Of a DNA stretch of 62,573 nucleotides, positions 1,713 through 47,889 are shown in pieces. Each line of letters begins with the position of its first letter. Position 1 is the stretch's first letter. The position numbers and the translations under genes are program-made. The stretch comes from Sphaerodactylus townsendi (lineage: Eukaryota), in the NCBI RefSeq assembly GCF_021028975.2, contig NC_059428.1, positions 156,675,428-156,738,000 on the forward strand, in the 5' to 3' direction. The notes under the pieces are model-generated. The model had not been told where the DNA came from and did no database searches. It worked only from the letters and a program-made list of their open reading frames with translations.

Positions 1713-1913
1713 ATGAAAACGCTAGTCAAACTCTGGGCTCCGAGACCCATTTGGAACCCGAAGCTACTTTGGAAGTCGTTCCGTAAAGACGGCAGGGCGT
1801 CTGCGTCGCTCGACCTTGCCGAGCTCGAAGCCATTAACCGGTGTGAAAAGGAGGTCCCCGAGTATTTTAATTTCGCAAACGACGTTCTGGACAAGTGGTC
1901 GCAGATAGAAAAG
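1713..1913 (+). CDS. ACSM paralog coding exon 1
   Basis: MKTLVK...[21 protein letters not shown]|gtaact. Confidence 0.9.
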
Positions 1914-4900
1914 GTAACTGTTTTCTGACGGCAACTCCCTGCTCGGCCAGGCAATACATTCTCTAAATGGATAAACAGTTTTACACACCTGTAGTGGGGG
2001 AGGGAGAAGGATTAAAGATGAAGCCAGAATGATAAATGAAGCAAAATGAAGCCATGCTGAACTGCTGTCTAGGGCAGTGGTGGCAAACCTACGGCATGGG
2101 TGCCAGAGGTGGCACTCAGAGCCCTCTCGGTGGGCACGCAAAAACAGAGTAACCCCCACCCCCCACACACACATCTAGGCTGGCCTGGGCCGCTGGGCTC
2201 GATTATTAGCATTAAACCTAAGACCTAGTTTTGGGGAAGCAGTGTAGGCAACCTTGTTAAGTGCTGTTAAACCCCACTGATTTTCATGCAAAGTACCAAA
2301 ACACGATTCTTTATCTGGGAGTAAGCTCGATTGCTGGCAATGGGGCTTGCTTCTGAGTAAACCCTCCTAGGGTTGTGATTCACCCGTCGGAAGAGTTGCT
2401 TCAAAGCAAAGCCACTGACTACCACCAAGCTTACTCCCGAGTAACGCACACCTCGGAGCCAACCGTTTTTTCTAAACTAAAACCTCAGTATTCAGGTTAA
2501 ATTGCCATATTGGCACTTTGCGATAAATAAATGGGTCTTGGATTGCAATTTGGGCACTCGGTCTTGAAAAGGTTCGCCATCACTGGTCTAGGGGAAGGAG
2601 TATAAATATTGTACCAGAGCCAGCATGGTGTAGCGGCTAAGAGCAGGTGGATTCTAATCTGCAGGACAGGGTTTGATTCCCCACTCCTCCATCTGAGTGG
2701 CAGAGGCGTATCTGGTGAACCAGATGTGTTTCCGCACTCCTGCATTCCTGCTGGGCGACCTTGGGCTAGTCACAGTTCTTCGGAACTCTCTCAGGCCCAC
2801 CTGCCTCACAAGGGGAGAGGAAGGGAAAGTAGACCTCCTCCTCCTCCTCCTTTTTCAAGCTATGCTTCTTAATCCACATTTGCATAGGAAGAAAGACACA
2901 AATGCAGCCACACAACTGTATTTTGGCATATTTTGCCTGGGTTCACATCGGCCTAAAATACTTATCTTAAATTTGGGAGTAGCAGTGGCGTAGTGGCTAA
3001 GAGCAGTGGCTAAGAGTGGGTGCACTCTGATCTGAAGGAACCGGGTTTGATTCCCAGCTCTGCCGCTTGAGTTGTGGAGGCTTATCTGGGGAATTCAGAT
3101 TAGCCTGTACACTCCCACACACGTCAGCTGGGTGACCCTGGGCTAGTCACAGCTTCTCGGAGCTCTCTCAGCCCCACCCACCTCACAGGGTGTTTGTTGT
3201 GAGGGGGGAAGGGCAAGGAGATTGTAAGCCCCTTTGAGTCTCCTGCAGGAGAGAAAGGGGGGATATAAATCCAAATTCTTCTTCTTCTAAATTCAAATCA
3301 AAGTCTGCCTCATAATTTTCTCTTAGGTCAGGCTGATAGTGAGAACGTGACTAGCCCAGGCCAGACAGCTAGACTTCATAATAAATAGGGATTGGAGCCT
3401 TTCTCTCTCCAAGTCCCATTCAGCCATCATGACTCATAGCTGTCAATGGACCACGCTTATTCTTAGGCTGTTGCAGATCGTGATGCTGAGTCTCTGATGC
3501 TGCTTTTGCAGGAGGGAAACAGACCTCCTAACCCTGCCTTGTGGTGGATCAACGGCAAAGGGAGCGAAGTGAGATGGAGCTACGAAGAGCTGGCAGCCCT
3601 GTCGAGGAAAGCGGCCAACGTCCTCATGGATCCGTGTGGTCTACAAAGAGGAGACCGGGTGATCCTCATTCTGCCTCGCGTACCAGAATGGTGGCTGCTA
3701 AATGCAGCCTGCATTCGGACAGGTGAAAATGGCGTTGTTGTCCCTGCTTAGTTACGATGGGAGACCACCAAGGAAATCCAAGGTCACTACAGCCAGTGGC
3801 CAGCGTGTGGTAGTGGTTAACAGTCAATTGCAAATGCCTTAACAGTCCAGGTGCTCGGGAGCAACAGCCGCAGAAGGCCATTGCTTTCACAACCTGCATG
3901 TGAGCTCCCAAAGGCACCTGGTGGGCCACTGCGAGTAGCAGAGAGCTGGACTAGATGGACTCTGGTCTGATCCAGCTGGCTTGTTCTTATGTTCTTATGA
4001 CCCTAATTTGGAGGACAAGGTTTGATTCCGCACTCCTCCACATGAGCAGCTGACTCTTATCTGGTAAACCAGATTTGCTTCCATGCTCCTACATTCCTGC
4101 TGGGTGACCTTGGGCTAGTCGCAGTTCTCTCTGAACTCTCTCAGCCCCACCTACCTCGCAAGGAGAGGGAGGGAAAGAACTTTGTAAGCTCCTTTGAGTC
4201 CTTTTTTTCAGGAGAGAAAGGCAGGGTATAAATCCAAACTCTTCCTCTTTTTCTATGGGAATTAAATCAGCCAAGAGGTAGTGTAGTGGTGAAAAGCAGT
4301 GGACTTTAACCTGGAGAATCAGGTTTGATTCTCCACTCCTCCACATGAATCCTGCTGGGTGTCCTTGGACCTGTCACACTTTGCTCACGACTCTCTCAGC
4401 CCATGAAGAGGAAGACAATGCAAACCGCTTCCAAATGTCTCTTGCCTTGAAAACCCTACAGCATAGGTGTCAAACTCGCGGCCCTCCAGATGTTGTGGAC
4501 TACAGTTCCCATCATCCTCTGCCAGAATGTTGCTGGCAGCGGGTGATGGGAACTGCAGTCCAGAACATCTGGGGGGTCGAGTTTGACACCTGTGCCCTAC
4601 AGGGTCACTCTATCAGCTGAGACTTGATGGCACACAGATAAATCAATATACACGCCTGACCCCAAAGATGACTGTATCAATTCACTGCTCTTTCAGGGAT
4701 TATCTTCATTCCGGGGACACCTCTACTGACCGCCAAAGACATCCTGTTCCGACTGCAGGCTTCTAAAGCCAAGGGCATTATCACCAACGAGAACCTGGCC
4801 CCAGTGGTAGATTCTGTTTCTTCGTCTTGCCCCTTTCTGAGGACAAAGCTCCTGGTCTCTGAAGGCAAGAGAGGCGGCTGGCTGAATTTCAAGGAGCTCC

Positions 4901-7900
4901 TTCGGTGAGTGCCCTGGTTTCCGAAGTACACTCCTTCACTTAAGCGAGTTAAAAATTCTTCTGGTTCTGGTGGGTTTTCCTGGCTGTGTGGCCCAGGTTT
5001 GGTGGATCTTGTTCCTAACGTTTCGCCTGCATCTGTGGCTGGCATCTTCAGAGGTGTATCACAGAGGAAAGTCTGTTACACACAGGGACTTCCCCCTGTG
5101 ATACACTTCTGAAGATGCCAGCCACAGATGCAGGCGAAACATTAGGAACAAGATCCACCAGACCTTGGCCCCACAGCCCGGAAAACCCACCAGAACCAGT
5201 TGAATCCGGCCGTGAAAGCCTTCGACAATACATTAAAAATTCTTCCTTTTTGCAACAAGGAGGAAAGCACACATTCGATAATAGCTAACCTGTGATGGCA
5301 GCGTAAAAAGAACACAGCCAATACCTTTAAAAAATATAATAATGGGATGTGGTTCCAGTCTATCTCAAAGGCTTATAGCCCCCCTTGAAGAATGCCTCCC
5401 CCCCCCCATGACCAAATACTAGCACATGGGTTGTACACGAAGGCTGGGCATACATGGCTATTCTATGATTAATAGAAGTCCCAAGAACAGCCCCCAGAAT
5501 CACAGGCTAGCCCCTTGTTAGCGACACTGGGCTACTCTATAAAGCAGGGAGCCCTTGGAATTTAAATGGCTTCTGCAGGAGGCGGAGCCCAAACAAAAAT
5601 GGCTTCTGCAGGAGGCGGAGCCAAACAGTCAGTCTCTCCTTTCTTTGCAAAAAAAAGAAAAGCAAACTATAAACAAATGAAGGAGAGCTGAAGGAGGAAG
5701 GGAGAAAAAAGAAGGGGGAATGAAAAGAAGGAAAGCCTAAAAGGGGAATGGAACCACAAGCGGAGTGTTTTCCAGTCCTCCAAATCCTGCAGCTGCTATG
5801 GCAGACGAAGACCCTTTGGTTTGAACAAAGGCAGCCAGTAATAAGCCGTGCCTTACAATCACACTGCTCATTTCTGAAAGATCAGCAGATGCCCGGGAAA
5901 GTACTGGTGGCCACCACAACAAAAACCTTTCTGTAAAGTCCAACGAGACAGCTTCGTTACGAATCTCTGCCACTCTTTCTTTCCTTCCTTTAAGAGCGGC
6001 CCCTTCCAGCCACGACTGCGTGAAAACCAAGAGCGATGAACCCATGACTATCTACTTCACAAGCGGAACCACGGGGTCTCCCAAGATGGCAGAGCATACC
6101 CACAGTAGCTTTGGCATTGGGTGTGCCTTGCCTGCAAGGTATGTGCTCTGGAGTCTCAGATGCCTTCCAAACTTCTTCCTGTCCACACTTCCCTTAAGTC
6201 AGTCTGATTTCCGACTGCTGGTGACAGATCCTTTTTGGTGTTGGGCCCAGCCTTACGGAGTGGCCTCCCAGGGAACCCTGACACTAACCTTGTTCTGCAA
6301 ACACTACCAAGCCGTTTTTATTCAGACGGTCTTTGAAGGGAATTCAGGACCTTCAGAGGGTGTTGCGGAAGTTCTGGGGCATTTAATTCTTGTAAACAAT
6401 GCCTTTTTCAAGAGTGCAAACTTCTGAGCCGGCCTTGAAGCACAGTGAAAACAAAGTAAATAAATGGCAAGTCATTTACTTGGTAAATGGATAAATGAAT
6501 CCTTAAATACTGTGAATGACTTGGCTGAAAGTGACCTACTTGGAGAAAAAGAAGAAGACACACTCTCCATGCCCTTCCCCCCTCACAACAAACACCCTGT
6601 GAGGTAGGTGGGGCTGAGAGAGCTCCGAGAAGCTGTGACTAGCCCAAGGTCACCCAGCTGGCATGTGAGGGAGTGTACAGGCTAATCTGAATTCCCCAGA
6701 TAAGCCTCCACAGCTCAGGCCGCAGAGCTGGGAATCAAACCCGGTTCCCCCAGATTAGATACACGAGCTCTTAACCTCCTACGCCACTGCTGCTCCCTGT
6801 GGCACAAAAAGGATGGCTTGTGCCACTTGTCAGGAGATAGCTCCCTGGTAGCTTTCCTTGTAGGTAAAGAAATGTTGCAGAGTCCCTTCGAAGTATCCAG
6901 AGCTCACTCACTTTCAAAGGCAACACACAGGGCTGCCCCTGACATCTGAAGTTGTAGACCAGTGTGGTGTAGTGTTTAAGAGCAGGTGGACTCTAATCTG
7001 GAGAACCGGGTTTGATTCCCCACTCCTCCACCCGAGCGGTAGACTCTAATCTGGTGAACCAGATTTGTTTCCCCACCTCCTACACATGAAGCCTGCTGGG
7101 TGACCTTGGGCCAGTCATAGCTCTCTGTTATCTCTCTCAGTACTGGGAAATTCCACCACAATTCTCAGCATCTTCCCCAGACTATGGTTCCCAGATTTCT
7201 TTGGGAAGGGAGAACCAGGATAGTAGTACTGATAGATCAGTGGTTCCCAAGCAGCGGTAGGTATACCCCCCAAGGGTACATGCCAGAGCATTGGGGGTCA
7301 CGTGAAAAAAAAATTAAATAATGGGTTTGCTAATTTGAGGACACAATTCTAGGGAAGTGAGTTGCCAAGGGGTATGTGAATTAAAAAAGGTTGAGAACCA
7401 CTGCATAGGTAACTACCCTGTTTCCCCGAAAATAAGACATCCCCTGAGAATAAGACGTAGTAGAGGTTTTGCTGAAGTGCTAAATATAAAGCATCCCCCG
7501 AAAGTAAGACGTAGCAAAGTTTTTGTTTGGAAGCATGCCCGCCGAACAGAACACCAGAGCATGCAGCTGTGGAGCGGAAAAATAAGACATCCCCTGAAAA
7601 TAAGACATAGCGCATCTTGGGGAGCAAAAATTAATATAAGACACTGTCTTATATTCGGGGAAACACGGTAGCATGCAAGTATAAAGTAAAGACGCAGTCA
7701 TCCTTTCTAAGTATCTCTGGGCAAGCTAAAAATGAGCCCTGACCTATTCCTTTCTGTGTTTCGCAGGTACTGGCTGGATTTGAAACCATCAGATATCATG
7801 TGGAATATGTCCGACACAGGTTGGATCAAGGCCGCCATAGGGAGTGTTTTTGCTCCATGGCTTCGTGGCTCCAGCGTCTTCATACACCACATGCCGCAGT

Positions 7901-10900
7901 TCGATCCCAGAGAGATTCTGAATGTAAGAGGATAAATCCTATCACATGGCTGGGTTTACTTTTCATAATTGGTAACTGTGCAAAGTATTCTCTTAAGAGC
8001 CTATCGTTTCTGTCCCCCCTGTGTTCAGAACTGAAGAAAAGGGGGGACTTAAAGCTGTTCCAGACAATGACCCCTTCCGCACACGCAAAATAATGCGTTT
8101 TCAAACCACTTTCACAATTGTTTGCAAGTGGATTTTGCCATTCCACACAGCTTCAAAGAGCACTGAAAGCAGTTTGAAAGTGCATTATTTAGCATGTGTG
8201 GAGTGAGTCAAAGATTGATTAAATATTTGAAATGTAATGCAATATTGCGCTATACAAAAATTATAAAATTAAGTCCAGATATGTGATTTATAAATTACAT
8301 TTATTTTTCAGATATGATTATTTTAAAGCTAAGTTCGTTTTAAGATTAACTTTCATTTTGGTTTAAAAGTTTCTCTATTTTAATGATATCGGCACAGTTT
8401 GGCCAACTAGGCCAACATATGTCTGAGAGCGCAAAGGACGACAATGTTGGATAAGCAGATTCATATTCTGCTAAGCAAACTCACCATGTTTTTATCTTGC
8501 TCTCTCTCTCTCCAGACTCTGGTCAGGTACCCCGTAACTACCATGTGCAGTGCTCCGACCGGCTATCGGATGCTGGTCCAACAGGATCTTACAGGTACTC
8601 CTAGGCTCTAACAACAACACAAGCCTTTATTGGCATATAAAACAGGACAAAATTTTAAAACAAAACAAGGTTAAGAAATGCAGTTGAAACTGCTAATTTC
8701 GAGTATAGAATTTTACAACGGATTTCACAAAAGAGCACATCAGAGCTGTTCAGGAGATTGGGTATCTTATAACACTCATGCCGCTGAGAACATTGCAAGA
8801 AAATGGAATTCATGTATTTCATGCGTATCTTATTGTATTTAGGGCATAGAAACAGAGAATGGTCAAGTGTTTCAACCGTAGTCATATCACATGAACAAAC
8901 TCTTTTAGAACGTTCCATATTCTTAAATCTTCCCTCCAGCAGAGCTGATGGCAGCACATTACATCTTTGCAGTGGCCAAGTTGCTTCTCCCTTCTGGAGG
9001 TGGGATTAATCCAAAGCAGGCGAAAGATAATGCTGCTTTATATAACTCACACGCTGCGCATGGGATTAATAATGTAGTCGGAGAACAGGTTGTCTTGGCA
9101 GCACGAGTCAAATTATGAAAATCAAGATCCAAGAGCCTATTCTTAACTAGTCTGAAGGCTTCCACCTTTGCGAGCAGGTACTCCTGACTCTTTAATGCAG
9201 GAGTGACCAACCTATGGTGCTCCAGATTTTCATGGACTACAATTTCCATCAGCCCCTGCCAGCATGGCCAATTGGCCACCGCTACTTTAATGGCATCAGG
9301 AATGTACAGGCTCTGTCTTTCTGCACAATTACGGAGCCTTACACTTAAGGTTGAGCCACCACCCTATTGGTTGATCGACATCCGACCCACAGACTAACTT
9401 GCTCAGCCCTCCCACTTAAAACACAAAACGAAGATGTCGGATACTAGATTGGGTCATTAGTGCAACTATCTCAGTAGTTGGCATTGCCCTGCAGTTTTAT
9501 AAGATGACCTGTTATACAAATACTTCAATAACATTTTTAAAGCCAGCACAATCCTCTGCTCCAATCATCTGTCTCACAGATGAGTGTGCCGAGAACTGGG
9601 TGGGCACATGTGAAGAGGTGATCAAGTAGGGCTGCAAACCTCCAAGAGATGGTCAAGGAGGGTTGCAACTAAAGATCTCCCTCTACTACAGTTGATCTCC
9701 CGACAACCGAGATCAGTTCTCCTGGAGAAAAAGGCTGCTTTGGAAGATGGGGTCTACGTTATTATACCCTGCTAAGGCCCCTCCCCTCCCCAGCCCCACC
9801 CTCCTCAGGCTCCACCCACAAAAATCTCCACATATTTCCCAACCCAGAGCTACAAACCTTGTCTTCAGCCCAATGGGCGTCCAGGGTTAGTGCCCTGGCT
9901 CTGCACTGGGAGCCTTTCTACATTCCATTGTCCCCCACATAGCCCTTTTGAGAGGTCAAAGGTGATCCTCTCCTGGCCTATTCCCAGCAGAAAAACTGCC
10001 TGGATCCAACTGGCTGTCTCTGATATTCCCACCGTGTGGAGGGAGACATTACAATGAAGGAAAACGTTTTGGATGACGGGGCAGGAAAAACACAGGCAAC
10101 CCTACCCCCAACCCTATTTCGTTTCTCAACTTGAAGCTACAGGTTCAAGAGCCTAAAGCACTGCTCGACAGGAGGGGAGTCGCTCAACCCCGAAGTGCTG
10201 GTGCAGTGGAAAAAACAAACAGGGCTGGACCTCTATGAAGGCTACGGACAGACCGAAGTGGTAAGCGTGCGTGTGTAAAGTGCTGTCAACTTATGGCATG
10301 GTGTGATGGCGGCTTAACCTCAAGATCTGTATGGAAAGCTTTTACGCGGCAGCGCTACCGGCGATGAGGAGACGACAGCCTGAATGAAATTTCTGCCTAG
10401 CAATCATGCTGGCAGGGGATGACATGGAACCGCAGTCCAACACTGAGGGCCGCCGAAGCCGGACATAATTTTGCTGATTCACATAAGCCCTGCCAGCATC
10501 ATGCATGGCGGGGATGGTCAAGAGACTGATCATCCCTTGCGGATGGCCTCTCATGGCAAATCTATAAGCATTGACCTGGGCAGGGAGTTCTTCATGCATA
10601 TGGTTCTCCAGATGTTCATGGATTGCCTAATTCCCCATCAGCCCCTGCCAGCATGGCTGCAAGCGGTAGGGCATCTGTGGGAATTGTAGGTCTATAAGAA
10701 CAGATTCGCAGGTTACACATCCTGGAGGCCATAGTGTTGAATCCCGCTGTAGAGCTGCCAAAGAAACACAAGGCAAACAGAGGTGGTTTGCCGTTGCCTG
10801 TCTCTGCATAGGACCCCAGACTTCCTTGGTGGTCTCCCATCCAAATACTAACCAGGGCTGACCCTACTTAGCTTCTGACATCTGATGAGATCCGGCTAGA

Positions 10901-13900
10901 ACACGGCACTTTCTGCACAAAACCCGAAAACATATCCAAAATGTTTTCAATCCCCCTTATGTCCGCATTTACCCTCTCCAAACGATTTTTGCCTTTTATG
11001 TTGAGTTTGTCATGTGGAATCACTGCTTCGGTGATTCCCGTCTTGCAGCCCATCTGGAACTAACTCATCATTTTAGAACCTTAATGTGGCCACGATATGA
11101 AAATAAAAGCAACTGCATTTGCACAAATCTTTAAAATGTTACCATCTGGCAGACGATACAGGTCTATAAAAATTAGGACAAAGAGGCTTAGAGACAGCTT
11201 CTACTCTAGAGCTGTGGCGATGCTGAACTCCGGGGCTTCGTGTTGATGTGTTTGGGGCTGTGTAGGGATGGGTGGAGGAAGGGGAAAGTGAGGATGGGGT
11301 ATGAGTCTGGAATTGTGTGCATCGAGGAATGCTGCTGTAAATTTTCGTTGTGCGTGCACAATGACAATAAATGCTTATGCTAAAATACAGCTTTTCAACA
11401 ATCAAAAAGTCCTTCCTTAACTGATCTCTAGAAGGCTGTTTGAGTCTTGAAGGGCAGGGATTCCAGAGAGCGGGGGGCAGGGGGCTAACACAGAGAAGGC
11501 CTTCTTCTGCCTGCTTATCAATCTTACCTCCAGCATCTTCCAGCTCCAGAGGATTTAGGTCAAAGACTCTCATCCGGATTCTCCGTCTGCTGCAACAAGC
11601 TATCACGGGCCGCTCTGGAATCTGTTGACATACATAAAAGCATTCCGCCTTTACAGATCTCTCAATAAATAAATGGATACTCTTTTCTGATCTAATAAAC
11701 CTAGTGTGAAAGCTGTGGATTTTTTAAAACTCAGGTGGTTTAAAATTCTATTTGCTGCAGGGGGTGATATCACTAATGGAAAAAGGAAAGGAAATTAAAC
11801 CTGGCTCTATGGGTAAGCCGGTTGCATCGTATGACGTTCAGGTAAGACAACATCTTGTTTGTCAACCAGATGTGGAAAACGAGGAACAAGAATGGCATCT
11901 GAACAGGTGTATTCAGAGGCTGTTGGGAGGTTTGTTTCTCAGTCATACCTCACTCAGACTGGCCGCCATGTTTGCCATTTTCTAGATCATAGATGCCAAT
12001 TCTGCAAATATTCTTGCCTCTCATACGGGGAGGGAAGGGGAGATCAAAGCGATCAGAATCCAAATCCAAGCCGGTCCCAATTTTATAACTTTTTTCACAG
12101 CTCACGTGGTTGGCTTAATTTATAACACAGCACTTTCCCCTTTTCATCATTTCAGGATGGCGATGCGCCACACAATGATATCACCACACCATGCAAGTCT
12201 ATACGGTATAGGTGGAATAAACCACATGGATGCCGTTTTCAGTGGCAGCCTCGCGGCACATGTTAATATGCAGTTCTGTTCTCATCCAAAATCGCTACCG
12301 AGAGCCCAAGGGACTCCTGATGTATAAAAGGAGGAGGGCTGCTTTTCTAAAGGAGCCAGTGTGGTGTAGTGGTTAAGAGCAGATGCACTCTAATCTGGAG
12401 AACCGGGTTTGATCCACCACTCTGCCACTTGAGCTGTGGAGGCTGATCTGGTGAACCAGATTAGCTTGTGCACTCCAACACATGCCAGCTGGGTGACCTT
12501 GGCCTAGTCATGGTTCTTTGGAGCTCTCTCAGTCCCACCCACCTTACGGGGTGTTTGTTGTGGGGGGAAGGGAAAGGAGATTATAAGCCCCTTTGAGTCT
12601 CCTTACAGGAAAGAAAGGGGGATATAAATCCAAGCTCTTCTTCTAAACGTAAGAAATCAGACAGAAAAAAAAGCAAACTTTACAATCTTATCAGAGAGGA
12701 TGCTTTCCTCACTTAAAACTTTCCCAAACACTAGAACAGAAATTTTCATGGCCCATCCAGGAGGCATACCATTGACCAGAGGGAGTAGAAAAGGAACGCA
12801 ATGAAGAAAAACCCACAGGGGCGTTTAAAACAATTGGTTAATTGAAGGCAAGATATTTTTTAAAAGATAATCATGTTGAAATTGGTTTATTCTTCTTTTA
12901 GGTCACAGCAGCTCATGATTGACTCTCTAAAAAGCAGCAGAAAGTCCCCAGTTTGGATTGGAACCATTTTGCAGCTACAAGAAATAGGCTGCTATTTGCT
13001 CCCCTGTGGGAAAAAATACAGGGAACATTCAGGCAACCTGTTTCCACCAATGAAGCAAATAATACCTCAGGGTGGGGGATGGAGGGCTACTTGAAATTGG
13101 AAATCTGGGAACTTTAAGAAGAAGAGTCTGGATTTATATCCCCCCTTTCTCTCCTATAAGGAGACTCAAAGGGGCTTACAATCTCCTTTCCCTTCCTCTC
13201 CCCACAACAGGCACCTTGTGAGGCAGGTGGAGCTGAGAGAGCTCCGAAGAACTGTGACTAGCCCCAAGTCACCCCCCTTGGGAATGCAGAGGAGTCTGCG
13301 GAAACACATCCTGGTTCACCAGATAAGCCCACTCTAAAATTGAAGGTAGGGGAATCAAACCTGGTTCTCCAGATTAGAGTCCACCTGTTCTTAAACACTA
13401 CACCACACTGGCTCTTTTCACAAAAATAAGAATTGGCAATCCACTCTGGGATCTTTCAGTATCTTGTCTGGTTTGACCTCAAGCTTATAGCGATGTAATG
13501 TAAAATTTCAGCTGTGTTCTGACTCCCTTTTCTAATTGTTTGTTGCAAGGATAATCCAGAGAAAACGGCCTCAACCTTTCGTGGAAATTTCTACCTCACT
13601 GGAGACAGAGGGTGGATGGACGAAGATGGATACCTGTGGTTTGTTGCGAGAGCCGACGATGTCATTATGTCTTCTGGGTTCGTACATTTCGCTTTCAGAG
13701 CAAAAAAAAAACACACCAGAGATTTATTTTGTTATGGAATCAGATGGATCCAGCCAGGTTGATTCACATTACTGTAAAGTCGGTACCGAATGCATGCAAC
13801 ACATCCTATCTGGGACTGTCCTTACAAATGATTGAGAAACTCCAGTTGGTTCAAAAGGCTTTTACTGGAGCGAGCCAATGTAAACACATTTCACCTGTTC

Positions 13901-16900
13901 CTGAGCATGAAAATTGCCACCTTGTTTCCAAGCTCAAAACGTTGGTCCTTAACTTGCATGGGCCTTTATTTATTTACAATTGTCAAGTCGCAGGTAACTT
14001 ATGGTGACCCCATAGGTTTTCAAGATAAAAGTGGTTCAGAGGTGGCTTGCCCTTGCCTGTCTCTGCGTAGCAAACCCTGGACTTCCCTGGCAGTCTTTCA
14101 TCCAAGTACCAACCAAGGCCGACCCGGTTTAGCTTCTGAGATCTGACAAGATGGGCTAGCCTGGGTCATCCGGGTTAAGATGGACCTTATTTCAAGGACC
14201 CTTAATTAAAGGACTGTTTCGGTCTGTTTGGTACATACGTTCTGCTTGCCTGTTTTTGCTGACTGTGCCACCTCTCAGCACTGTAAAAGTGGCCACGGGA
14301 CATATTTCTGTAGCAGTCCTGTGGTCTGAAACTGTCTTTCAGAAGAAGATGAGAAAATCACCTTCCCTGCTGGCCTCCAGAAAACGGCACTGCTTTTAGG
14401 GCTGCCAACCTCCAGGTAGTGACTGGGGATCTCCTGCTGTTTCAATTGATCTCAGTTCACTTGGAGGAAATGGCCACTTGGCCAGGTGAACTCTATGGCA
14501 TTGAAGTCTCGCCCCTCCCCAATTCTTACCCTCCTGAGGCTCCATCCCCAAATTTCCAGGTATTTCCCAGTCTGGACTGGCAACCTTGGCTGCTTAGGAT
14601 GGCCTTTTGCGGAGTTTTAGGATATCAGGTAGAATGTCAACGCCTGTTCTGTGTATTTCAATGCTTTTCTAGGTATGGATTTTCCTTTCTGTTTTTATAT
14701 CGGATTTCATAGGTGTAAGATCACTCGCTGGGGGTAAAGGGTGGGGTATTAATACTTTAGCAAACCAACATGTTCCCAAACCAAGACAATCCTCACCCCA
14801 AACTTTATATACGTTTAAAATGAGAATCTGGCTACTTCTGCTCCTCTTCCTAGGTATCGTATTGGGCCCTCCGAAGTAGAAAATGCATTAATCGAACACC
14901 CTGCTGTGGTTGAGTCTGCCGTGGTCAGCAGCCCAGATGCTATCAGAGGGGAGGTAATGAAGAATTTAAAGTCTAACCTTTCATATTTAAGAACTGTGAT
15001 GTCATGAGGGCAAACCATTCCCCACTGAACCTCTTTCATCATCCTTCTATACTTTTGTCTTTGCTTTTTGCTGTGCAGCTTGTAGGTTCATCTATCCCAT
15101 GGACATGATTTTAAATGCAATTTTACACGGTATTTATACTAAGGATTTATACACGGTATTTATACTTTGCTTCTCACAGCCCTACGTTTTTGATGCAAAC
15201 ATCCCCTCTGTCAATGTTGCCTCTGCCTGGTGCTCGTTACCTTTGTGTATAAATGCGTACAACAACATAAACAGTGTTTACAGTGGTGTAAAAATGCCAC
15301 AAAATGACAAGACTCTGGAATACCAGAAGCAAAACCAGCCAGAACAAAAAAGATTCACAATGATAAGGGGGGGAAAGAGGGGGAAAGGCATATTTACACA
15401 TCATTGATTTATATACACAATATACATAATTTATATGTATACCCCCAAAGGGAGTTGGCTGGCACAAGAAGCGTCTTCCTATGCCAGCTGCTATCCCTGG
15501 TGGATTAAACATTTCCGTACATCCAAAAACATGCTTGGAATCCAGTTTGTCTTGGGTAATGCCATGCAGTATTTCCAAAAGACGGTCACAGCAGGGCATC
15601 CATACACCAAAGCTATTATGAGTACATTATTATTTTTTCCTTAGTTGCTCCAAATTTTTTTATAGCCGGTTCTCCCCCATTTGATCGAGGGCAATAGCTC
15701 TCAACAGGAACCAGATGCCCCCTTCCAGAGGGTGATTTTCTGGGGAGGGGGACTCACAATTTTTTGTGGGCAAATGTTGAAGACAGCATTCAGGATTTCA
15801 CTGCAACTTTCCACTTGCAGTTCCTTGTTCTGTACTGCTGACCCTGAGGATAAAACCCTGTCTTTTCTCCAGGCCCATAAAAATGAAACCCACAGAAAAC
15901 AGGAATGACCTCTATTGTAAGTATCATTTGGCAATACGAGGGACATTAGTTTTCCCTTGGCTATACCATTTGATCTTATCTCTGTATATTTAATTTAAAA
16001 AGACTTGAAAAAAGTAAACATTGCTTTGCCAGGAGTGGCGTTTTTGATTACCCAAAGGTTACAACCTGACTTTTCTTCCTAGGTGGTGAAAGCTTACGTC
16101 GTCCTGTCTCCTTCCTTTGCATCCCATGATAAGGAGGAGCTAACCCTTGAGCTTCAAGACCACGTCAAGAAAACGACAGCTCCTTACAAGTATCCCAGAA
16201 AAGTAAGGCCTGTTTAAAGCTCTACAAAACAGGCAGGGCCTCCAGGAAAAGGGCAATCATCGCTGAGGAAATTACTAAATTTTGTAAACAGTTTCCCCGC
16301 AGAGTTCCTAGTTTCTGATACAGGCTCTCCCCTTTGGGGATTAAACTGCAGTCGTCTTTTTATCCATAAAATGGACACCTCCAGCTGCCTCTGTTGAGTC
16401 ACGCTGCTGCGGTAAAAACAGGTCAAATCAAATATAGGCGAACTTCTCTTTGCTGCAACGGCTGACCACAAAATGGGTGCTCCTAAACTGCAGCGCCTGC
16501 AATAAAGAACGTTAATACATTATTGCTTAACCTATCAGGAACTCGAGTCTAGGTGCACGAATATAATTAATATGTGTCATCTTGAAGAGTAGAGGCAGTG
16601 ATGGCGAACCTATGGCACGGGTGCCAGAGGTGGCACTTAGAGCTCTCTCTGTGGGCACGCACAGAGTTCATCATGTGGGGGGGAAATCGCCCCCCCACAC
16701 ACACACACATTTAGGCTGGCCTGGGTCTCTGGGCTCGATTATTAGCATTAAACCTAAAACCTAGTTTTGGGGAAGCAGTATAGGTAATCCTGTAAAGCGC
16801 TGTTAAACCCCACTGTTTTTTATGCAAAGAACTAAAGTGCGTTCCTTTACCTGACAATGTGGCTTGCTTCTGAGTAAACCCTTCTAGGGTCATGATTCAC

Positions 16901-18734
16901 CCGTTCAAAGAGTTGCACGGTTGCTGCAAAGCAAAGCCACCTTCTACCCCCAAGCCTACTCCCGAGTAACGCACGCCTCAGAGCCAACCATTTTTTCAAA
17001 CCTAAAACCTCAGTATTCAGGTTAAATTGCCGTGTCGGCGCTTTGCGACAAATCAGTGGGTTTTGGGTTGCAGTTTGGGCACTCGGTCTCAAAAAGGTTC
17101 ACCATCACTGATATAGGGGATGGAGGCTTTGGGCCTCTCGGCCTACCTCAGCAAAACCTTGTAGTTTTCTGGGCCTACCTGAGGCCTCGCCTCCATTTGG
17201 GAGCGTCAAGCTTCATGTCCTGAAGAGGCCGTGTGGAACTGGATTTTCCAGGAGATATGACTGAAAAACTAATTTATAAATAAAACCTCATGGCTGGAAA
17301 GCTAGTTCCTGAACAGGTAAAGGTCAGGGTTGATGGAGGCACACAGGAATGGAGCCCTAAGGATTCTGGGAAATGTAGTCTGGCTTCCACAGAAGTCCTG
17401 CAAAATGGAGGACTGACAGAAAGCTGAAGAGGGAGGGAGGGAGACAAAGGCTCGTTCCGCACAAGCAGAATAATGCACTTTCAAACTGCTTTCAGTGCTC
17501 TTTGAAGCTGTGCAGAATGGCAAAATCCACTTGCAAACAGTTGTGAAAGTGGTTTGAAAATGCATTATTTTGCATGTGCGGAAGGGGCCAAAGAGCAGAT
17601 TTGGGAGCCTGGCTGGAAAAGAGCAATCCCATAATGCAATCCTGTGCAGACTCGCTCCATGCTAAGGGCCTGGGTTCGAGTGGAGTCCGCCTGGGTGGTG
17701 AGGGCAGAGTTGTGAGGAGTTGCCAACTCTGGGCTGGGAAATTCCTGGATATTTGGGGGGTTGGAGCCTAAGGAAGGTGGGATTGGGGAAGGGAGCGAGT
17801 TCATTGGGGTATAACGACACGGAGCTGCCATTTTATCCAGGGGAATTATCATCTGGCGATTAGATGTCATTCCAGGAGATCTCCAGGCGACACCTGGCCG
17901 TTGTCAACCCCGCTACTCAGTTTAACATGTGCGCCACCGAGGCATGATCACGTCCTCCTTTTACGTGGTTGTTCCATACTGCTACGTTGTGGTTGCTTTA
18001 GCTACAGGCTGGCTTGTTTACTATCCATTCAGCAAAGTTTGTAGCCTTCCTTCCAAACAAGCGGCTTTTCTTCTGGTTAGTTCCCTCCTTTCCATTTTTA
18101 TAACAAACATCTGAGAGGTGTCAGGCTGAAACCCGGGGCCTGAGTTCAGGTCCCCCCCCCCACCCCCACCCCCCCGGCCCGAGACATATCGCTGAAGAAA
18201 CTCAGACCTTCTCTATCAAAATCCACACCCCCACATATGCTGTTCGGCCTTTCTTTGGTTTCAGGATTCAAGAAAATCTATCCACTCTTGGTAGGTGGCG
18301 AAATGACTGATGTGTCAAAGACTGGGATCTAACCAGGGTTCAAATCCCCCCGAATTGCAATTAAATTTGCAAAGGGCTCTTGGGTCAGTCATTCTTGCTC
18401 AGCCTGGCCTACCTTGCCGAACTGTTGTGAAGATTGAACGGCAAAAAGAGAAGCATGTTCACTGCCCCGAGTTCTTTGGAAGGAGGCTGGGGCTTTCGAA
18501 AGTGATGCTTTTGTATAAAGGAAGCTATTCTGAGGTTATAGAACAGACTGAGATGTGCCTGATCGTGAAACAAATATCTGTTATTGATATGGCGACTACC
18601 TTGCGTTTTCTTTTTCTTTCGATCAGGTGGAGTTTGTCCACCAGCTGCCAAAAACTGTCAGCGGCAAAATCCGAAGAAATGAATTAAGGAAAAAGGAATG
18701 GGAACAGATCAAGCACGGCACTCACATATGGTAA
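1713..18734 (+). CDS. ACSM-family medium-chain acyl-CoA synthetase, mitochondrial (ACSM4/5-like paralog); 13 coding exons; apparent -1 frameshift after coding exon 6
   Basis: join(1713..1913,3512..3722,4697..4904,5995..6138,7767..7923,8516..8594,10137..10260,11761..11841,11986..12108,13550..13677,14854..14953,16083..16202,18627..18734). All introns are GT-AG. ANL motifs [19 protein letters not shown] and [11 protein letters not shown] are present, and the N-terminus is basic and presequence-like. Internal exon sizes match neighbouring ACSM3 except c6 (79 vs 80) and c9 (123 vs 102). Exact orthology cannot be resolved by eye. Confidence 0.9.
2075..2585. mobile_element. non-autonomous hAT transposon
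   Basis: TIRs cagtggtggcaaacct / aggttcgccatcactg; 8-bp TSD gtctaggg at 2067..2074 and 2586..2593; second copy at 16596..17110. Confidence 0.9.
2616..2852 (+). mobile_element. Squam3-like SINE (internally deleted)
   Basis: same head and core as 953..1270. Confidence 0.8.
2975..3288 (+). mobile_element. Squam3-like SINE
   Basis: full length; near-identical to 22645..22948 and 51207..51499. Confidence 0.88.
3512..3722 (+). CDS. ACSM paralog coding exon 2
   Basis: ttgcag|[12 protein letters not shown]...[17 protein letters not shown]|gtgaaa, 211 nt. Confidence 0.93.
3795..4249 (+). mobile_element. Squam3-like SINE interrupted by a CR1-type 3' end (about 3827..3999)
   Basis: SINE head breaks after gtggttaaca; the insert ends in the (TTCTTATG)n tail of squamate CR1; SINE resumes at about 4000. 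Confidence 0.75.
4462..4594. mobile_element. palindromic hAT MITE
   Basis: TIR cataggtgtcaaactc / gagtttgacacctgtg; TSD ccctacag at 4454..4461 and 4595..4602. Confidence 0.9.
4697..4904 (+). CDS. ACSM paralog coding exon 3
   Basis: tttcag|[25 protein letters not shown]...WLNFKELL|gtgagt, 208 nt. Confidence 0.93.
4962..5232. mobile_element. Penelope-like element remnant (inverted pseudo-LTR pair)
   Basis: about 105-bp inverted arms; 13-bp TSD ttaaaaattcttc at 4949..4961 and 5233..5245; hammerhead-like core CTGAAGA...GAAAC. Confidence 0.8.
5995..6138 (+). CDS. ACSM paralog coding exon 4
   Basis: P-loop [15 protein letters not shown], 144 nt, AG/GT bounded. Confidence 0.93.
6546..6796 (-). 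mobile_element. Squam3-like SINE
   Basis: reverse complement of the family sequence. Confidence 0.82.
6958..7140 (+). mobile_element. Squam3-like SINE, 3'-truncated
   Basis: head and core only. Confidence 0.75.
7238..7403. mobile_element. hAT/Charlie-type MITE
   Basis: cagtggttcccaa ... ttgagaaccactg termini; no clear TSD. Confidence 0.65.
7416..7668. mobile_element. Tc1/mariner-superfamily (Tc2-like) MITE
   Basis: TIR ccctgtttccccgaaaataagac / gtcttatattcggggaaacacgg, TA on both flanks, internal repeats of aaataagacatcccc. Confidence 0.85.
7767..7923 (+). CDS. ACSM paralog coding exon 5
   Basis: [19 protein letters not shown]...FDPREILN|gtaaga, 157 nt. Confidence 0.93.
8069..8209. mobile_element. 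PIF/Harbinger-type MITE (about 141 bp)
   Basis: same family as 17449..17589 and 34151..34291, which show 3-bp TSDs. Confidence 0.75.
8516..8594 (+). CDS. ACSM paralog coding exon 6 (1 nt short)
   Basis: [26 protein letters not shown]+g|gtactc; 79 nt, ends in phase 1 while the next exon needs phase 2. Confidence 0.85.
8610..9172 (-). mobile_element. 5'-truncated non-LTR retrotransposon 3' end (RTE-X-like; clade tentative)
   Basis: CCHC knuckle RVCSC...[10 protein letters not shown], gccaataaagg+(TGT)n tail, degenerate TSD at 8591..8609 and 9173..9191. Confidence 0.8.
10137..10260 (+). CDS. ACSM paralog coding exon 7
   Basis: [20 protein letters not shown]...YEGYGQTEV|gtaagc, 124 nt. Confidence 0.92.
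10765..10900 (-). mobile_element. 5S rRNA-derived SINE (5S-Sauria-like)
   Basis: 5S-like gaagctaag..agggtc..ttggatgggagacc followed by Sauria-type ggcaaaccacctctg. Confidence 0.7.
11380..11640 (-). mobile_element. degraded L2/CR1-group LINE 3' fragment
   Basis: PALWN...LKQ...LRK...LYF-like ORF2 C-terminus. Confidence 0.5.
11761..11841 (+). CDS. ACSM paralog coding exon 8
   Basis: [27 protein letters not shown]|gtaaga, 81 nt. Confidence 0.92.
11986..12108 (+). CDS. ACSM paralog coding exon 9 (21 nt longer than paralogous exon)
   Basis: ttctag|[41 protein letters not shown]|gttggc, 123 nt. Confidence 0.75.
12352..12644 (+). mobile_element. Squam3-like SINE
   Basis: family sequence. Confidence 0.85.
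13117..13414 (-). mobile_element. Squam3-like SINE
   Basis: family sequence, reverse. Confidence 0.82.
13550..13677 (+). CDS. ACSM paralog coding exon 10
   Basis: [21 protein letters not shown]...RADDVIMSS, 128 nt. Confidence 0.93.
13750..14390 (+). mobile_element. degraded L2 LINE fragment interrupted by a minus-strand 5S-Sauria-like SINE (about 13985..14180)
   Basis: [18 protein letters not shown]...HISPV resembles the post-RT region of L2 ORF2. Confidence 0.6.
14854..14953 (+). CDS. ACSM paralog coding exon 11
   Basis: [33 protein letters not shown]|gtaatg, 100 nt. Confidence 0.93.
16083..16202 (+). CDS. ACSM paralog coding exon 12
   Basis: VVKAYVVL...TAPYKYPRK|gtaagg, 120 nt. Confidence 0.93.
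16596..17110. mobile_element. non-autonomous hAT transposon
   Basis: colinear with 2075..2585; TIR cagtgatggcgaacct. Confidence 0.88.
17449..17589. mobile_element. PIF/Harbinger-type MITE
   Basis: ggctcgttccgcac / gtgcggaaggggcc termini, aaa on both flanks. Confidence 0.78.
18627..18734 (+). CDS. ACSM paralog coding exon 13 (last)
   Basis: [35 protein letters not shown]. Confidence 0.93.
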   Translation: MEFVHQLPKTVSGKIRRNELRKKEWEQIKHGTHIW

Positions 18735-20987: not shown

Positions 20988-21289
20988 TCAAGGATCACTG
21001 TCCTTGTGATTGTCACTAGCCTTTTCCTCAGCTGATTCCCCATGCGGGTCTTTATCCTCCGTCGTCTTCTCGGCCCCTTCCAAGCTGCCCTCCCGCGGCG
21101 CCTTCGGGGCACCGGGCTGCCTGTCCTCTTGGCCGTCCTTCACCACCTCTTGGAGGTTGTATTTCCGGAAGAGGACGTAGTCCTTCGCCACGCTCAAGCA
21201 GCAGATGTTTTTAATTATTTCCACCACGATAGTGAACTTGGGGTTGCCCAGGTCGACTTTGTTTTCCGGGTTGAGATCGCTGACCACTC
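20988..21289 (-). CDS. THUMPD1: THUMPD1 exon 4
   Basis: ttgcag|VVSDLNPENKVDLGNPKFTIVVEIIK...KDSDP*. Confidence 0.95.
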
Positions 21290-24200
21290 CTGCAAAAATG
21301 AAAAAGGTGACGGGGGGAGGGGAGGGGGGAAAAACACAATCAAGGTTTATAAAATGATGAACAGCAAGGAGACGAAGGAGAGAGAAATCTCGAGAGCGCT
21401 GGTTGAAGCCGATGAGTAGGGGAGTAATGCCAAACAAAATTGCCAAACGATGCAAAAAAAATAAAATAAAATCTCCTGGAACTCATGGCCACAGGACAGC
21501 TCGAGGAAATGCACCTCCTGGAATCTCATGGCCACAGATTCGTTCAAGGAAATGCATCTCACAGAATCTTATGGCCACAGGTTAGTTCAAGGAAATGCAT
21601 ATCTGTCAGGATGTGTTTTTTCCTTCCATCAAAGGTGGAGCATTCACACCTACTCAGGAGAAGAAGGAAAGTTGGATTTATATTCCCCGCTTTCTCTCCT
21701 GCAAGGAGACTCAAAGGGGCTTACAAACCCCTTTCCCTTCCCCCCTCCCAACAGACACCCTGTGAGGTAGGTGGGGCTGAGAGGGCTCTGAAGAACTGTG
21801 ACCAGCTCAAGGTCACCCAGCTGGCATGTGCTGGAGTGTACAGGCTAATCTGAATTCCTCAGATAAGCCTCCACAGCTCTAGCGGTAGAGCGAGAATCAA
21901 ACCCGGTTCCTCCAGGAACAAGTGAGGGGATGATTCCAGGGGAACCCCCCTTTCCTAGAAATACGCAAAGAATGTTTTTTTTTTTTAATGTAAGGGAGTT
22001 TCAGCATCAAAACTGTTGAAAAATGACATTGTGTGACGCTGCATTGTGAGACCAGTCGCCATTTAGTGGGTTATTTAGAAACCACAGGAAAGCAATGCAG
22101 CAGCATCAAGAGTGGTAGGGAAGAAAGGTGGCAACAGTGAGAAAGAACAGACCGCTTACCTGCCAGCTCTTTGATGACTTCTTCCCGACTCAGGTGGCTG
22201 TTGTTGCGAGCCTTGTACGCGATCTGGAAAGTGCCCTTCTGAGGAGCCTTAAACCATGGCTCGAAGAAGGTCTCCGCGTAACGCTTCATGTCCTCCAGGA
22301 AGGCTTTGCAGGTGCCGGAAACGGGCAACATGCGCAAAATCACCCTCGTTTTCTTCTTCTTGGTGGTGTGCATATCCTTCAGGATGTGATGCACCAGCTT
22401 CTCGGGTTCTGCAAGAAGAAAGCGCTGGCATGATGGACGGCCCAGGCTAATCTGACCTCATCAGATCTCAGAAACTAAGCAGGGTCTGCTCTGGCTTGTT
22501 TTTGGATGGGAGACCACTGAGGAAGCCCAGGGTTGTTATGCAGAGGAAGGCAACAGCAAGCCGCCTCTGAACGTCGCTTGCCCTGAAAATCTGACTGGGT
22601 TGCCATCGATTGACTGTGACTTTGCAGCATTTTAGTAGTAGTAAGGAGCAGCAGTGGCATAGGAGGTTAAGAGCTCGTGTATCTAATCTGGAGGAACCGG
22701 GTTTGATTCCCAGCTCTGCCGCCTGAGCTGTGGAGGCTTAGCTGGGGAATTCAAATTAGCCTGTGCACTCCCACACACGCCAGCTGGGTGACCTTGGGCT
22801 AGTCACAGCTTCTCGGAGCTCTCTCAGCCCCACCCACCTCACAGGGTGTTTGTTGTGAGGGGGGAAGGGCAAGGAGATTGTAAGCCCCTTTGAGTCTCCT
22901 GCAGGAGAGAAAGGGGGGGATATAAATCCAAACTCTTCTTCTTCTTCTATAGTAGTAGTAGTAGAAGAAGAAGAGTATGGATTTATCCCCTGCCTTTCTC
23001 TCCTGTAAGGAGACTCAAGGTGGCCTACAAGCTCCTTTCCCTTCCTCTTCCCACAACAGACACCTGGTGAGGCAGGTGGGGCTGAGAGAGTTTGGAGAGA
23101 ACTGTGACTAGCCCAAGGTCACCCAGCGGGAATGCAGGAGTGGAGAAACAGATCGGGTTCACCTCAAGTGGAGGTGTGGAGAATCAAACCCAGTTCTCCA
23201 GATTAGAGTCCCCCTGCTCTTAATCACGTCACCACACTGACTCTGTCACACACAAGCCTAAAATAACCAGCTAAATCATTTTTTAAAAGAGGGGAAAAAA
23301 ACACAAACGCAGTCTACAAGATACAATAATTTAAAAGCTAAGAAAGACTGCAAGTAGCAACACTTGTAGGAGATCAAAACAGAGTGGGAGCAATCCACAT
23401 ATACACAGTCAAATATAAATTACAGAAGAACACATGTTTTAACTTTTATTCTTGCCCTGAAGCAGCCATGCAAAGTTTTCCACTTTTATTTCTTAGCCCC
23501 TATATTACAACTGAAAATACCTGTTTGTTTTCGTTCTTCTATCATGCTTAGTACATTGCAGGTACCGATTATAAGAACGCTAGTCCCCACTCTGGCTGTT
23601 TTTAGGTTCGAAAATGAGGGTGGTAGTGTAACCTGTTTTTCCCCCACACTAAGGATAAGAACAGCCAGAGGGTTGGTTTGGGCAGCAGAAATAGTCCAGT
23701 GCAAATTTTGAAAGAAACCCAACCCACCCTGCGACAGACATGCAGAGGCTGCGAGGGACCGGAAGAGAGCAAACTAAAGCTTAAACCGGACAATATGGAA
23801 ATGTGGCCGATGGGGAGCTGGGCTGACCCTGGAATGGGTTTCAACCTGCGTTTGGCCTCTCTTCCCCAAAATGATAAGACACCGTATGTCTGGGTGACAG
23901 AAGTGACCAGAAGAGTGTTTTTCCAGCTCTATAGCAGGAACACCAATGACATGTCTTAGGGACATCTGGCCTAGACTACCAGTGGTCTAGGGACATCTGG
24001 CCTTGACTTGCAGGCGGTTCAGAAACAGCAGTGGGTTCAGACTGTGGTGGTTATCTCGGACGTTAACAAACGCCAACTGCGATAACCTCCAGGCAAACCA
24101 TATTGGCTGTGAGCTTGTCATGACATTCAATGCTCTTCAGGGCATGGTGCCAAGATACCCAAGAAACTGCTTGTGTTCACCCAAGGAAGCTCTTGCACAG

Positions 24201-46608: not shown

Positions 46609-47889
46609 TCACGTTCGCATAGAAGGTCGGAGACCCAGACATTTCTTTTGAATGTTTCCCGATGAATGCAAAGTTGTCCCAGGGGATGGTAGCCCGACAG
46701 GGCTGAAGGGAGAGGAAGGAAGCGTGCATTTATCTTTTAGAAGCGTATGCTCCCATTTGAAATAGCCACAACTCTTTCGGTTCCCTTCCTGCTTTCCCAC
46801 TGGGCAGCTAAAGAACGCTTTACCATGATTGGGGCCCCCCTTGGATACCTGGAGCCTTCTAGCTCTCCGACCACATTTGCATAAAGGCGGGGTCACTTTC
46901 CCATTTTCGGTGAACCTGAAAGATCGGTTTTGATTGCTGGAAGAGTTTAAGATGCCGCAAGGCACTGGACGCGATACTGAGCGCCTGAAAGGGTTAATGG
47001 ATGGTGCATCTTTGTCTTTGTATATGTCAAAGGGTGGCTTTTTTCCTGGAGGAGCAGGCGGTGGACTGGACGGCTTCCTCTTCAGAGCTTCAGAAGCAGA
47101 CATCAGGCAGTCTCCATTTGATGACATGGAAGCTGTGTTGGTCTTTGCAGCGGGGAGTTTAAAAACAGAAGCGTTGGAAGACTTGCTTGGAGCTGTGCCT
47201 TTGCGATAAATCGTAGTATTTGGACTTTTGTACACAACAGACTCAGAGAGTTCCTCGTTCAGAGTCATTTCAGGAGCCCCTTCGGATTGCAAATTGCTCA
47301 CGTCTGACTCGCTCGCATCTGTTCTTTCTCCGGAGACCGGTGAACTCCCAATGCCCGAGTGGTCCTCCAACAGTAGGCCTTCTGAACTCTGGTCAGATTC
47401 TGGTATCAATGGGAAATCCTCCCAGTCGGCCAGCATGGACAGACAATCAGAAGTAGTCCCAATGTCCATATCGGAATCATTGATGGAAGAAAGCGTAGTG
47501 GACACCAGCACCAGCCCTGCGTTCTGTGCCGGGGCACTGGCCATCAGATGCCTGTTGCTTAGTCCACTCTGGATGCTAAAAGAGGACGGCTGAAGACAGC
47601 CAATAGGGGAATGGAGTCGGCCAGCAGGCGGAGTCAAATAACTTGGAACGCTGCCGCAGCCAGCGGTTTTGGACCCATTTCTTGACAAAATTGGGATGCT
47701 TCCATACAAACACACTGGTGCGTACTCCGGTTGTTCTTCTCCAGTGTCATTTTTAATTGACGAGGTGCTTTCACAGTCCCCGTTTTTACCCAACCCCGAT
47801 GTTTTTGCACTGTTGCTGCTCCCCAAGGGGCTGGCCTCGGTAGGCTTTGCATTCAAAAATCTGGCAATAGAGTTCTTTCCTGGAGGTGC
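46609..47889 (-). CDS. ERI2: ERI2 exon 9 (last)
   Basis: 1281 nt, Ser-rich linker plus GRF zinc finger, ends LRPSMRT*. Confidence 0.95.
   Translation of the reverse strand, partial: APPGKNSIARFLNAKPTEASPLGSSNSAKTSGLGKNGDCESTSSIKNDTGEEQPEYAPVCLYGSIPILSRNGSKTAGCGSVPSYLTPPAGRLHSPIGCLQPSSFSIQSGLSNRHLMASAPAQNAGLVLVSTTLSSINDSDMDIGTTSDCLSMLADWEDFPLIPESDQSSEGLLLEDHSGIGSSPVSGERTDASESDVSNLQSEGAPEMTLNEELSESVVYKSPNTTIYRKGTAPSKSSNASVFKLPAAKTNTASMSSNGDCLMSASEALKRKPSSPPPAPPGKKPPFDIYKDKDAPSINPFRRSVSRPVPCGILNSSSNQNRSFRFTENGKVTPPLCKCGRRARRLQVSKGGPNHGKAFFSCPVGKQEGNRKSCGYFKWEHTLLKDKCTLPSSPFSPVGLPSPGTTLHSSGNIQKKCLGLRPSMRT

What the first reader, a model, noticed from the sequence alone, without database searches (positions are those of the whole stretch)
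8516..9191. LINE target-site duplication copied a splice donor and may preserve the base missing from a frameshifted ACSM exon
Seen: coding exon 6 of the ACSM paralog is 79 nt (gat ctt aca g|gtactc). The paralogous ACSM3 exon is 80 nt (gat tta agc ag|gt), and the next exon starts in phase 2, so canonical splicing gives a stop at 10154..10156. A minus-strand LINE fragment begins 15 nt into the intron and is flanked by acaggtactcctaggctct (8591..8609) and agcaggtactcctgactct (9173..9191), so the TSD spans the exon/intron junction. The downstream copy reads agc ag|gt, exactly the in-frame 80-nt ending. Inference: the TSD records the ancestral exon end and the exonic copy lost one G, by real pseudogenisation or consensus error. 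The duplicate is also a potential cryptic donor. Caveat: the extra G could be LINE-derived microhomology.
Basis: partly seen in the sequence, partly recalled or inferred. Interest (0 to 1): 0.7.

Follow-up and report, generated by a model that had tools for sequence, protein, structure and literature searches.

The report
Assembly error beside a LINE scar
The apparent frameshift in this lizard fatty-acid-activating gene (ACSM4-like) is absent from short-read data of two samples of the same species and is most likely an assembly error; the neighbouring retrotransposon did copy the splice donor, as such insertions ordinarily do, but the copy does not preserve the missing base.

Summary
The letters are as described: a 79-nt exon 6 (8516-8594), a stop at 10154-10156 on canonical splicing, and a 5'-truncated antisense LINE (8610-9176) whose target-site duplication (TSD) spans the donor. 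(1) The 'extra G' (9174) is LINE body: 25 of 29 other copies align from exactly 9176, and all 25 carry these bases. (2) Short-read contigs of both same-species samples laid (X1, X3) have a T after 8592, lack 8603 and read A at 8605. That gives an 80-nt in-frame exon and a perfect 16-nt TSD. Two related species lack the LINE and also give 80 nt. The assembly is noisy nearby: the LINE copy has 11 insertion events and no deletion, and exon 9 holds its orthologue plus 21 scattered extra bases (not checked by reads). Verdict: most likely a consensus error in a probably intact ACSM4-like gene, beside an ordinary young LINE insertion. The scan noted a donor-copying TSD before in this genome (TWSG1, unchecked). 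Use of the copied donor is untested; no RNA holder was listed.

The parts
8516..8594 (+). Coding exon 6 of an ACSM4-like gene; 79 nt as assembled, 80 nt in short-read contigs (one T after 8592)
   Evidence: gene name from the closest full-length hit examined, P0011, named ACSM4-like by its source
8592..8605 (+). Cluster of three differences between assembly and reads: T missing after 8592, extra base 8603, G instead of A at 8605; likely consensus errors
   Evidence: tables 3 and 4: one contig each in X1 (depth 59.8) and X3 (depth 20.5)
8593..8609 (+). Left TSD copy = native exon end and splice donor; 16 nt in the reads version
   Evidence: shared suffix with the right copy is 16 nt in the reads version and 4 nt as assembled
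8610..9176 (-). 5'-truncated non-LTR retrotransposon fragment (3' end of the ORF, 3' UTR, polyadenylation-like hexamer, short GTT-type tail); clade not determined
   Evidence: a longer copy, L006, carries an RVT_1 frame, E 2.2e-35
9172..9176 (-). The last 1-2 nt also match the target (microhomology)
   Evidence: 25 of 25 copies aligned from 9176 carry these five bases; X1 contigs of other copies run on unlike the window behind 9176 (table 7)
9176..9191 (+). Right TSD copy; duplicated donor with the cut after 9177, use untested
9151..9177 (+). Formally possible 27-nt in-frame cassette between an antisense-LINE AG and the duplicated donor; weak acceptor, hypothetical
   Evidence: one of 3 in-frame, stop-free candidates among 21 AGs; 10 pyrimidines in the 18 nt before it
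10137..10260 (+). Coding exon 7 (phase 2 start); the apparent stop at 10154-10156 arises only with the 79-nt exon 6
11986..12108 (+). Coding exon 9, 123 nt instead of 102; holds the orthologous exon with 21 scattered extra bases and no deletion; likely unpolished long-read sequence, not checked by reads
1713..18734 (+). Whole ACSM4-like coding span, 13 exons, all introns GT-AG; 594-aa frame without internal stop once one base is allowed at the end of exon 6

Best explanation
The 79-nt exon is most likely a consensus error of the assembly: short-read contigs of two same-species samples show an 80-nt in-frame exon, so the ACSM4-like gene is likely not frameshifted here. Separately, a young LINE inserted antisense 15 nt into intron 6 and copied 16-17 nt of target, likely by ordinary target-primed reverse transcription with 5' truncation at a 1-2 nt microhomology; this left a second copy of the donor about 580 nt downstream. 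The native donor is likely still used. Use of the copy alone would hit a stop three codons into the intron. Shown: the reads version, the perfect TSD, the LINE origin of 9172-9176, the empty site in two related species. Inferred: that the window's version exists in no animal, the TPRT mechanism, that exon 9 is also an artefact, that the gene is functional.
For:: X1 (sample S1) and X3 (sample S2) each have one contig over 8300-8635/8636 with T put in behind 8592, 8603 left out and 8605 G>A; the X1 contig has only that one other letter in 334 nt; those three changes give an 80-nt exon in frame with exon 7 and turn a degenerate repeat into a perfect 16-nt TSD, which is the state expected at insertion., table 5: X4 (organism B) and X5 (organism C) join 8592 to 9175, the empty site, again 80 nt; 9172-9176 is LINE; the window's LINE copy has 11 insertion events (24 nt) and 0 deletions against the majority of 30 copies; the 29 others average 5.1 insertion and 0.7 deletion events; exon 9 gives 25 of 34 identities to the snake ACSM4-like protein after skipping 21 extra bases with no deletion (40 shuffles: at most 17-18); the other 11 exons need no indel and all introns are GT-AG. 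Residual indel errors in long-read assemblies, and polishing bias in repeats, are described in PMC8574707 (passages seen).
Against: The runs are assembled contigs, which drop minor alleles, so a heterozygous 79-nt allele in the assembled animal is not strictly excluded. X1 and X3 come from one study, and the best holder may not be independent of the assembly. Only 4 of the 16 listed runs were laid. The exon-6 error is a deletion, whereas the nearby noise is insertion-rich. Exon 9 was not checked against reads and, oddly, stays in frame and stop-free as assembled. The sequencing technology of the assembly is not known to me. No RNA was examined.
Confidence: 0.9

Rival explanations
1. The 79-nt exon is a real null allele carried by the assembled animal (heterozygous or private), and the samples laid carry the intact allele.
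For: Contigs show presence, not absence (tool caveat). The gene sits in a cluster of at least four ACSM paralogs plus a partial copy, where loss could be tolerated (inference).
Against: It needs a deletion, an insertion and a substitution within 14 nt on one haplotype, while the roughly 290 nt upstream match X1 exactly. All three differences lie at a repeat edge next to insertion-rich sequence.
Confidence: 0.06
2. One reading: the TSD preserves the ancestral exon end, and the exon copy lost a G.
For: The downstream copy does read like the paralog's in-frame ending. In a narrower sense the base at 9175 matches the base inferred for relatives B and C from the joint 8592 to 9175, so the last three exon bases of the empty site are matched.
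Against: 9172-9176 is LINE sequence in 25 of 25 copies. The reads put a T, not a G, at the gap. The match at 9175 is also LINE sequence, so it cannot be read as a record.
Confidence: 0.01
3. The gene is a decaying pseudogene for another reason: exon 9 is truly degraded, and exon 6 is incidental.
For: Exon 9 as assembled has 15 of 41 identities in 5 blocks to the snake protein, against 52-88% for the other 12 exons, and a poor donor.
Against: 21 insertions with no deletion inside one exon, with the orthologous codons recoverable and every other exon clean, is not how neutral decay looks (general knowledge: substitutions far outnumber indels and decay spreads over all exons).
Confidence: 0.03

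Closest known systems
5'-truncated non-LTR retrotransposon insertions with TSDs near splice sites (NF1 de novo L1/Alu series, PMC3219598, passages seen)
   Same: Short direct repeats flank the insert (6-17 bp in that paper, 16 here); 5' truncation; insertion at or near a splice site; a cryptic exon inside an inserted L1 is described there.
   Different: Here the element has a short GTT-type tail rather than a long poly(A), its clade was not determined, the native donor is intact, and no splicing defect has been shown.
Duplication of AGGT by transposon insertion as a route to intron gain (Yenerall and Zhou 2012, PMC3443670, passages seen)
   Same: A TSD copies an AG|GT sequence to both sides of the element.
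   Different: The copied AG|GT is an existing donor, so the element lands inside an existing intron; no new intron arises and the coding sequence is unchanged.
False frameshifts from residual indel errors in long-read assemblies (PMC8574707, passages seen; PMC8812927, search listing and start of abstract only)
   Same: A single-base indel creates a frameshift and premature stop; errors persist at and in repeats, where short-read polishing is unreliable.
   Different: None in kind. The platform used for this assembly was not established here.
Vertebrate ACSM4-like medium-chain acyl-CoA synthetases (P0011, XP_039216381.1, named by its source; human ACSM2A 2WD9)
   Same: AMP-binding and AMP-binding_C domains in P0011; 13 coding exons match P0011 in order; exon 7 matches ACSM2A at E 1.4e-9; a THUMP-domain gene, a second ACSM and an RNase_T/GRF gene follow.
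   Different: Orthology rests on best similarity and neighbourhood, not on a tree; substrate and expression were not tested.

Membership tests
TPRT-type non-LTR retrotransposon insertion | Target-site duplication flush with both element ends | tested here: met
   16-nt perfect repeat in the reads version; 21 of 28 other copies tested have exact TSDs of 11-16 nt
TPRT-type non-LTR retrotransposon insertion | Shared 3' end with tail and variable 5' truncation among copies | tested here: met
   All 29 copies fetched end at the same tail and extend 5' by different lengths
TPRT-type non-LTR retrotransposon insertion | Family encodes a reverse transcriptase | tested here: met
   RVT_1, E 2.2e-35, in the longer copy L006; the window's copy is truncated downstream of it
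TPRT-type non-LTR retrotransposon insertion | Empty site with one copy of the target in relatives | tested here: met
   Joint 8592 to 9175 in X4 and X5, 2 of 2 other-species runs laid
A named LINE clade (L1, L2, CR1, RTE, Rex1 and so on) | RT phylogeny or match to a repeat library | not tested
   No repeat library on hand; no tree built
Unitary pseudogene by frameshift | Disabling lesion present in reads of the species | tested here: not met
   2 of 2 same-species runs laid show the in-frame 80-nt exon
Unitary pseudogene by frameshift | Further lesions or relaxed selection across exons | tested here: inconclusive
   11 of 13 exons clean; exon 9 garbled but not checked by reads; dN/dS not computed
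TSD as a record of a lost ancestral base | The diagnostic base lies in target-derived, not element-derived, sequence | tested here: not met
   9172-9176 is element sequence in 25 of 25 copies
TE exonisation / cryptic donor | Splice junctions at the duplicated donor in RNA | not testable with these tools
   No RNA holder was listed; only sequence-based candidates

The most novel reading that the evidence does not exclude
The TSD-copied donor, predicted to pair with U1 better than the native one (-7.1 against -5.5 kcal/mol, because the native site has T at -3), teams up with an antisense-LINE AG to splice in a 27-nt in-frame microexon (9151-9177). This would add nine LINE-encoded residues to a species-specific ACSM4-like isoform: an exon born from a TSD-made donor.
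Probability: 0.04. Interest if true: 0.4.

Novelty: not a real feature. Interest (0 to 1): 0.08.

Why it matters
Little biology. The frameshift that gave the finding its interest is most likely not in the animal, and a LINE whose TSD overlaps a donor is an ordinary event. The practical value is a warning: this assembly appears to carry unpolished, indel-rich patches at repeat edges and even inside exons (exon 9), so apparent gene losses from it need read checks. The locus is also a clean presence/absence marker: filled in both organism A samples laid, empty in the one sample each of B and C. If the copied donor were shown to close an in-frame microexon, it would be a tidy case of exon birth from a TSD.

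Tried and rejected
Non-canonical rescue of a real 79-nt exon, considered by eye: the nearby AGs and the intra-exon GT at 8527 either keep the wrong phase or delete 12-23 conserved residues; not needed once the reads gave 80 nt. Loss of one A or G from a doublet was my first guess for the missing base; the reads show T. A compensating -1/+1 pair in exon 8, written in my notebook, is not supported: no indel is needed at normal penalties, and at low penalties the intact paralog exon gains as many spurious indels. The word-indexed protein search with exon 5 found nothing (weak evidence by the tool's own note). A PDB search with exon 9 as assembled found no ACSM. No RNA holder listed. No contig of any of the 4 runs covers 8997-9037; a hole proves nothing and I do not count it. 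dN/dS, LINE clade assignment and a maximum-entropy splice score were not computed; the U1 duplex energy is a crude stand-in. I ran three paper searches, none for this locus, so I make no claim about whether it is in print. No supplements were read.

Full report
Observation. Exon 8516-8594 is 79 nt, and joined to the acceptor at 10137 it reaches TAA at 10154-10156. The gene has 13 coding exons over 1713-18734, every intron GT-AG. Allowing one unknown base at the end of exon 6 gives a 594-residue frame with no internal stop. The closest full-length protein examined is P0011, named ACSM4-like by its source; gene 1 has more identities to it than the in-window paralog does in 10 of 13 exons. A THUMP-domain gene, the second ACSM and an RNase_T plus GRF zinc-finger gene follow (76 of 140 candidate frames scanned). 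The names THUMPD1, ACSM3 and ERI2 for these are recalled from mammalian gene order, not from a call. Exon 6 is 80 nt in the in-window paralog and in both complete upstream paralogs.

The element. A search of G000 with 8610-9200 listed 41 matches from 40 scored of 1714 candidates; 29 other copies were fetched. They are 89-93% identical to the window copy, share the 3' tail and are truncated at different 5' points. One longer copy carries an RVT_1 frame. Homology to the window copy begins at exactly 9176 in 25 of 29 copies (the other four begin at 9168-9170). All 25 carry the five bases of 9172-9176 and continue with a different LINE sequence beyond it. The sequence 9177-9191 is not LINE and is the right-hand TSD. 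TSDs of 11-16 nt were found in 21 of 28 other copies; in 16 of them the junction could be placed, and 10 had at least 1 nt and 4 had at least 2 nt of microhomology. The 1-2 nt overlap here is ordinary for the family.

The reads. Sixteen runs were listed, none on record as RNA; four were laid on 8300-9500. X1 and X3, two samples of organism A from one study, each give one contig running from intron 5 through the exon into the LINE tail. Both put a T behind 8592, leave out 8603 and read A at 8605. The X1 contig has no other substitution in 334 nt; two further gap letters are counted in each contig but not listed. Applied by position, these three differences make exon 6 80 nt and in frame (Thr, then AG|C Ser) and lengthen the shared TSD suffix from 4 to 16 nt, ending at 9176. 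X4 (organism B) and X5 (organism C, another study) join 8592 to 9175, skipping 582 nt: the empty site, which also gives 80 nt. The tool marks the letters between as not known, so the C at that place in B and C is inferred from the joint coordinates. The insertion is therefore likely younger than the split from B and C, whose contigs differ from the window by 10 of 293 and 13 of 298 letters upstream of it (table 8).

Why an assembly error is the best reading. Three differences in 14 nt at a repeat edge, all resolved to the perfect TSD in reads, would otherwise need three mutations on one haplotype. The neighbourhood is noisy in the same assembly. Against the majority of 30 aligned copies the window's LINE has 11 insertion events (24 nt) and no deletion, mostly at 8950-9050; the other 29 average 5.1 insertion and 0.7 deletion events. 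Exon 9 is 123 nt where the three paralogs have 102; it gives 25 of 34 identities to P0011 once 21 scattered bases are skipped, with no deletion, against at most 17-18 in 40 shuffles. Such indel residues, and polishing bias in repeats, are described for long-read assemblies (PMC8574707, passages). Against this reading: contigs drop minor alleles, X1 and X3 share a study and the best holder may not be independent of the assembly, the exon-6 error is a deletion, and exon 9 has not been checked against reads, so 'the gene is intact' is inferred.

How the real feature works. Likely target-primed reverse transcription placed the element antisense with its tail 15 nt into the intron; second-strand cleavage at the exon end copied 16-17 nt, including the donor, to the far side (mechanism from established knowledge, as summarised in PMC3219598, passages). 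The native donor is intact. Skipping it for the copy would read Arg-Tyr-Ser-stop into the intron, a likely NMD substrate. The copy has C at -3 where the native site has T in reads, and is predicted to pair slightly better with U1 (-7.1 against -5.5 kcal/mol; the 24 other annotated donors range from -1.9 to -11.5, crude measure). Of 21 AGs in 8900-9172, three give in-frame, stop-free cassettes (51, 42 and 27 nt), all with poor pyrimidine tracts (7, 6 and 10 of 18). Candidates upstream of about 9060 rest on garbled sequence. None was tested on RNA.

Comparison and novelty. It works like, and meets the tested features of, an ordinary 5'-truncated non-LTR insertion; the clade was not determined. 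It resembles AGGT duplication by transposon insertion (PMC3443670, passages) but creates no new intron. It fails the tests for a frameshift pseudogene and for a TSD that records a lost base. An earlier unchecked note of this scan describes a TSD copying the TWSG1 donor in the same genome, so even the real part is not unique here.

Verdict. Observation partly confirmed; interpretation partly supported on the TSD and not supported on the missing base or on pseudogenisation. Most likely an assembly error (0.9) beside an ordinary LINE scar. Interest 0.08.

Noticed in passing
window 11986-12108: Exon 9 of the ACSM4-like gene holds the orthologous 102-nt exon plus 21 scattered extra bases and no deletion, yet stays in frame and stop-free; likely unpolished long-read sequence, not checked by reads.
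   Followed up: partly
L003-L031: Across 29 LINE copies in G000, private insertion events outnumber deletion events about 7 to 1, which suggests repeats in this assembly are poorly polished and their apparent ages inflated.
   Followed up: partly
G000:C4 about 156,648,800-156,653,600 (L039-L040): A further ACSM paralog upstream of the window shows coding exons 1-5 only; exons 6-13 were not found in the roughly 23 kb up to the window gene's start. Truncated copy or assembly collapse.
   Followed up: partly
G000:C4 about 156,608,700-156,644,500 (L035-L039): Two complete-looking ACSM paralogs lie upstream on the same strand, so the cluster has at least four full ACSM genes.
   Followed up: partly
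window 8592-9175: Presence/absence marker: LINE present in both organism A samples laid, absent in the one sample each of organisms B and C.
   Followed up: partly
window 9200-9280: A very high-copy short repeat with an internal inverted part starts about 10 nt after the right TSD (summed contig depth in the millions); not classified.
   Followed up: no
window 20991-22457 (-) and 46612-52599 (-): THUMP-domain exons between the two ACSM genes, and RNase_T plus GRF zinc-finger exons after the second; the order recalls mammalian THUMPD1-ACSM3-ERI2.
   Followed up: partly
window 48855-48982: A run of 128 N; nothing can be said about it.
   Followed up: no
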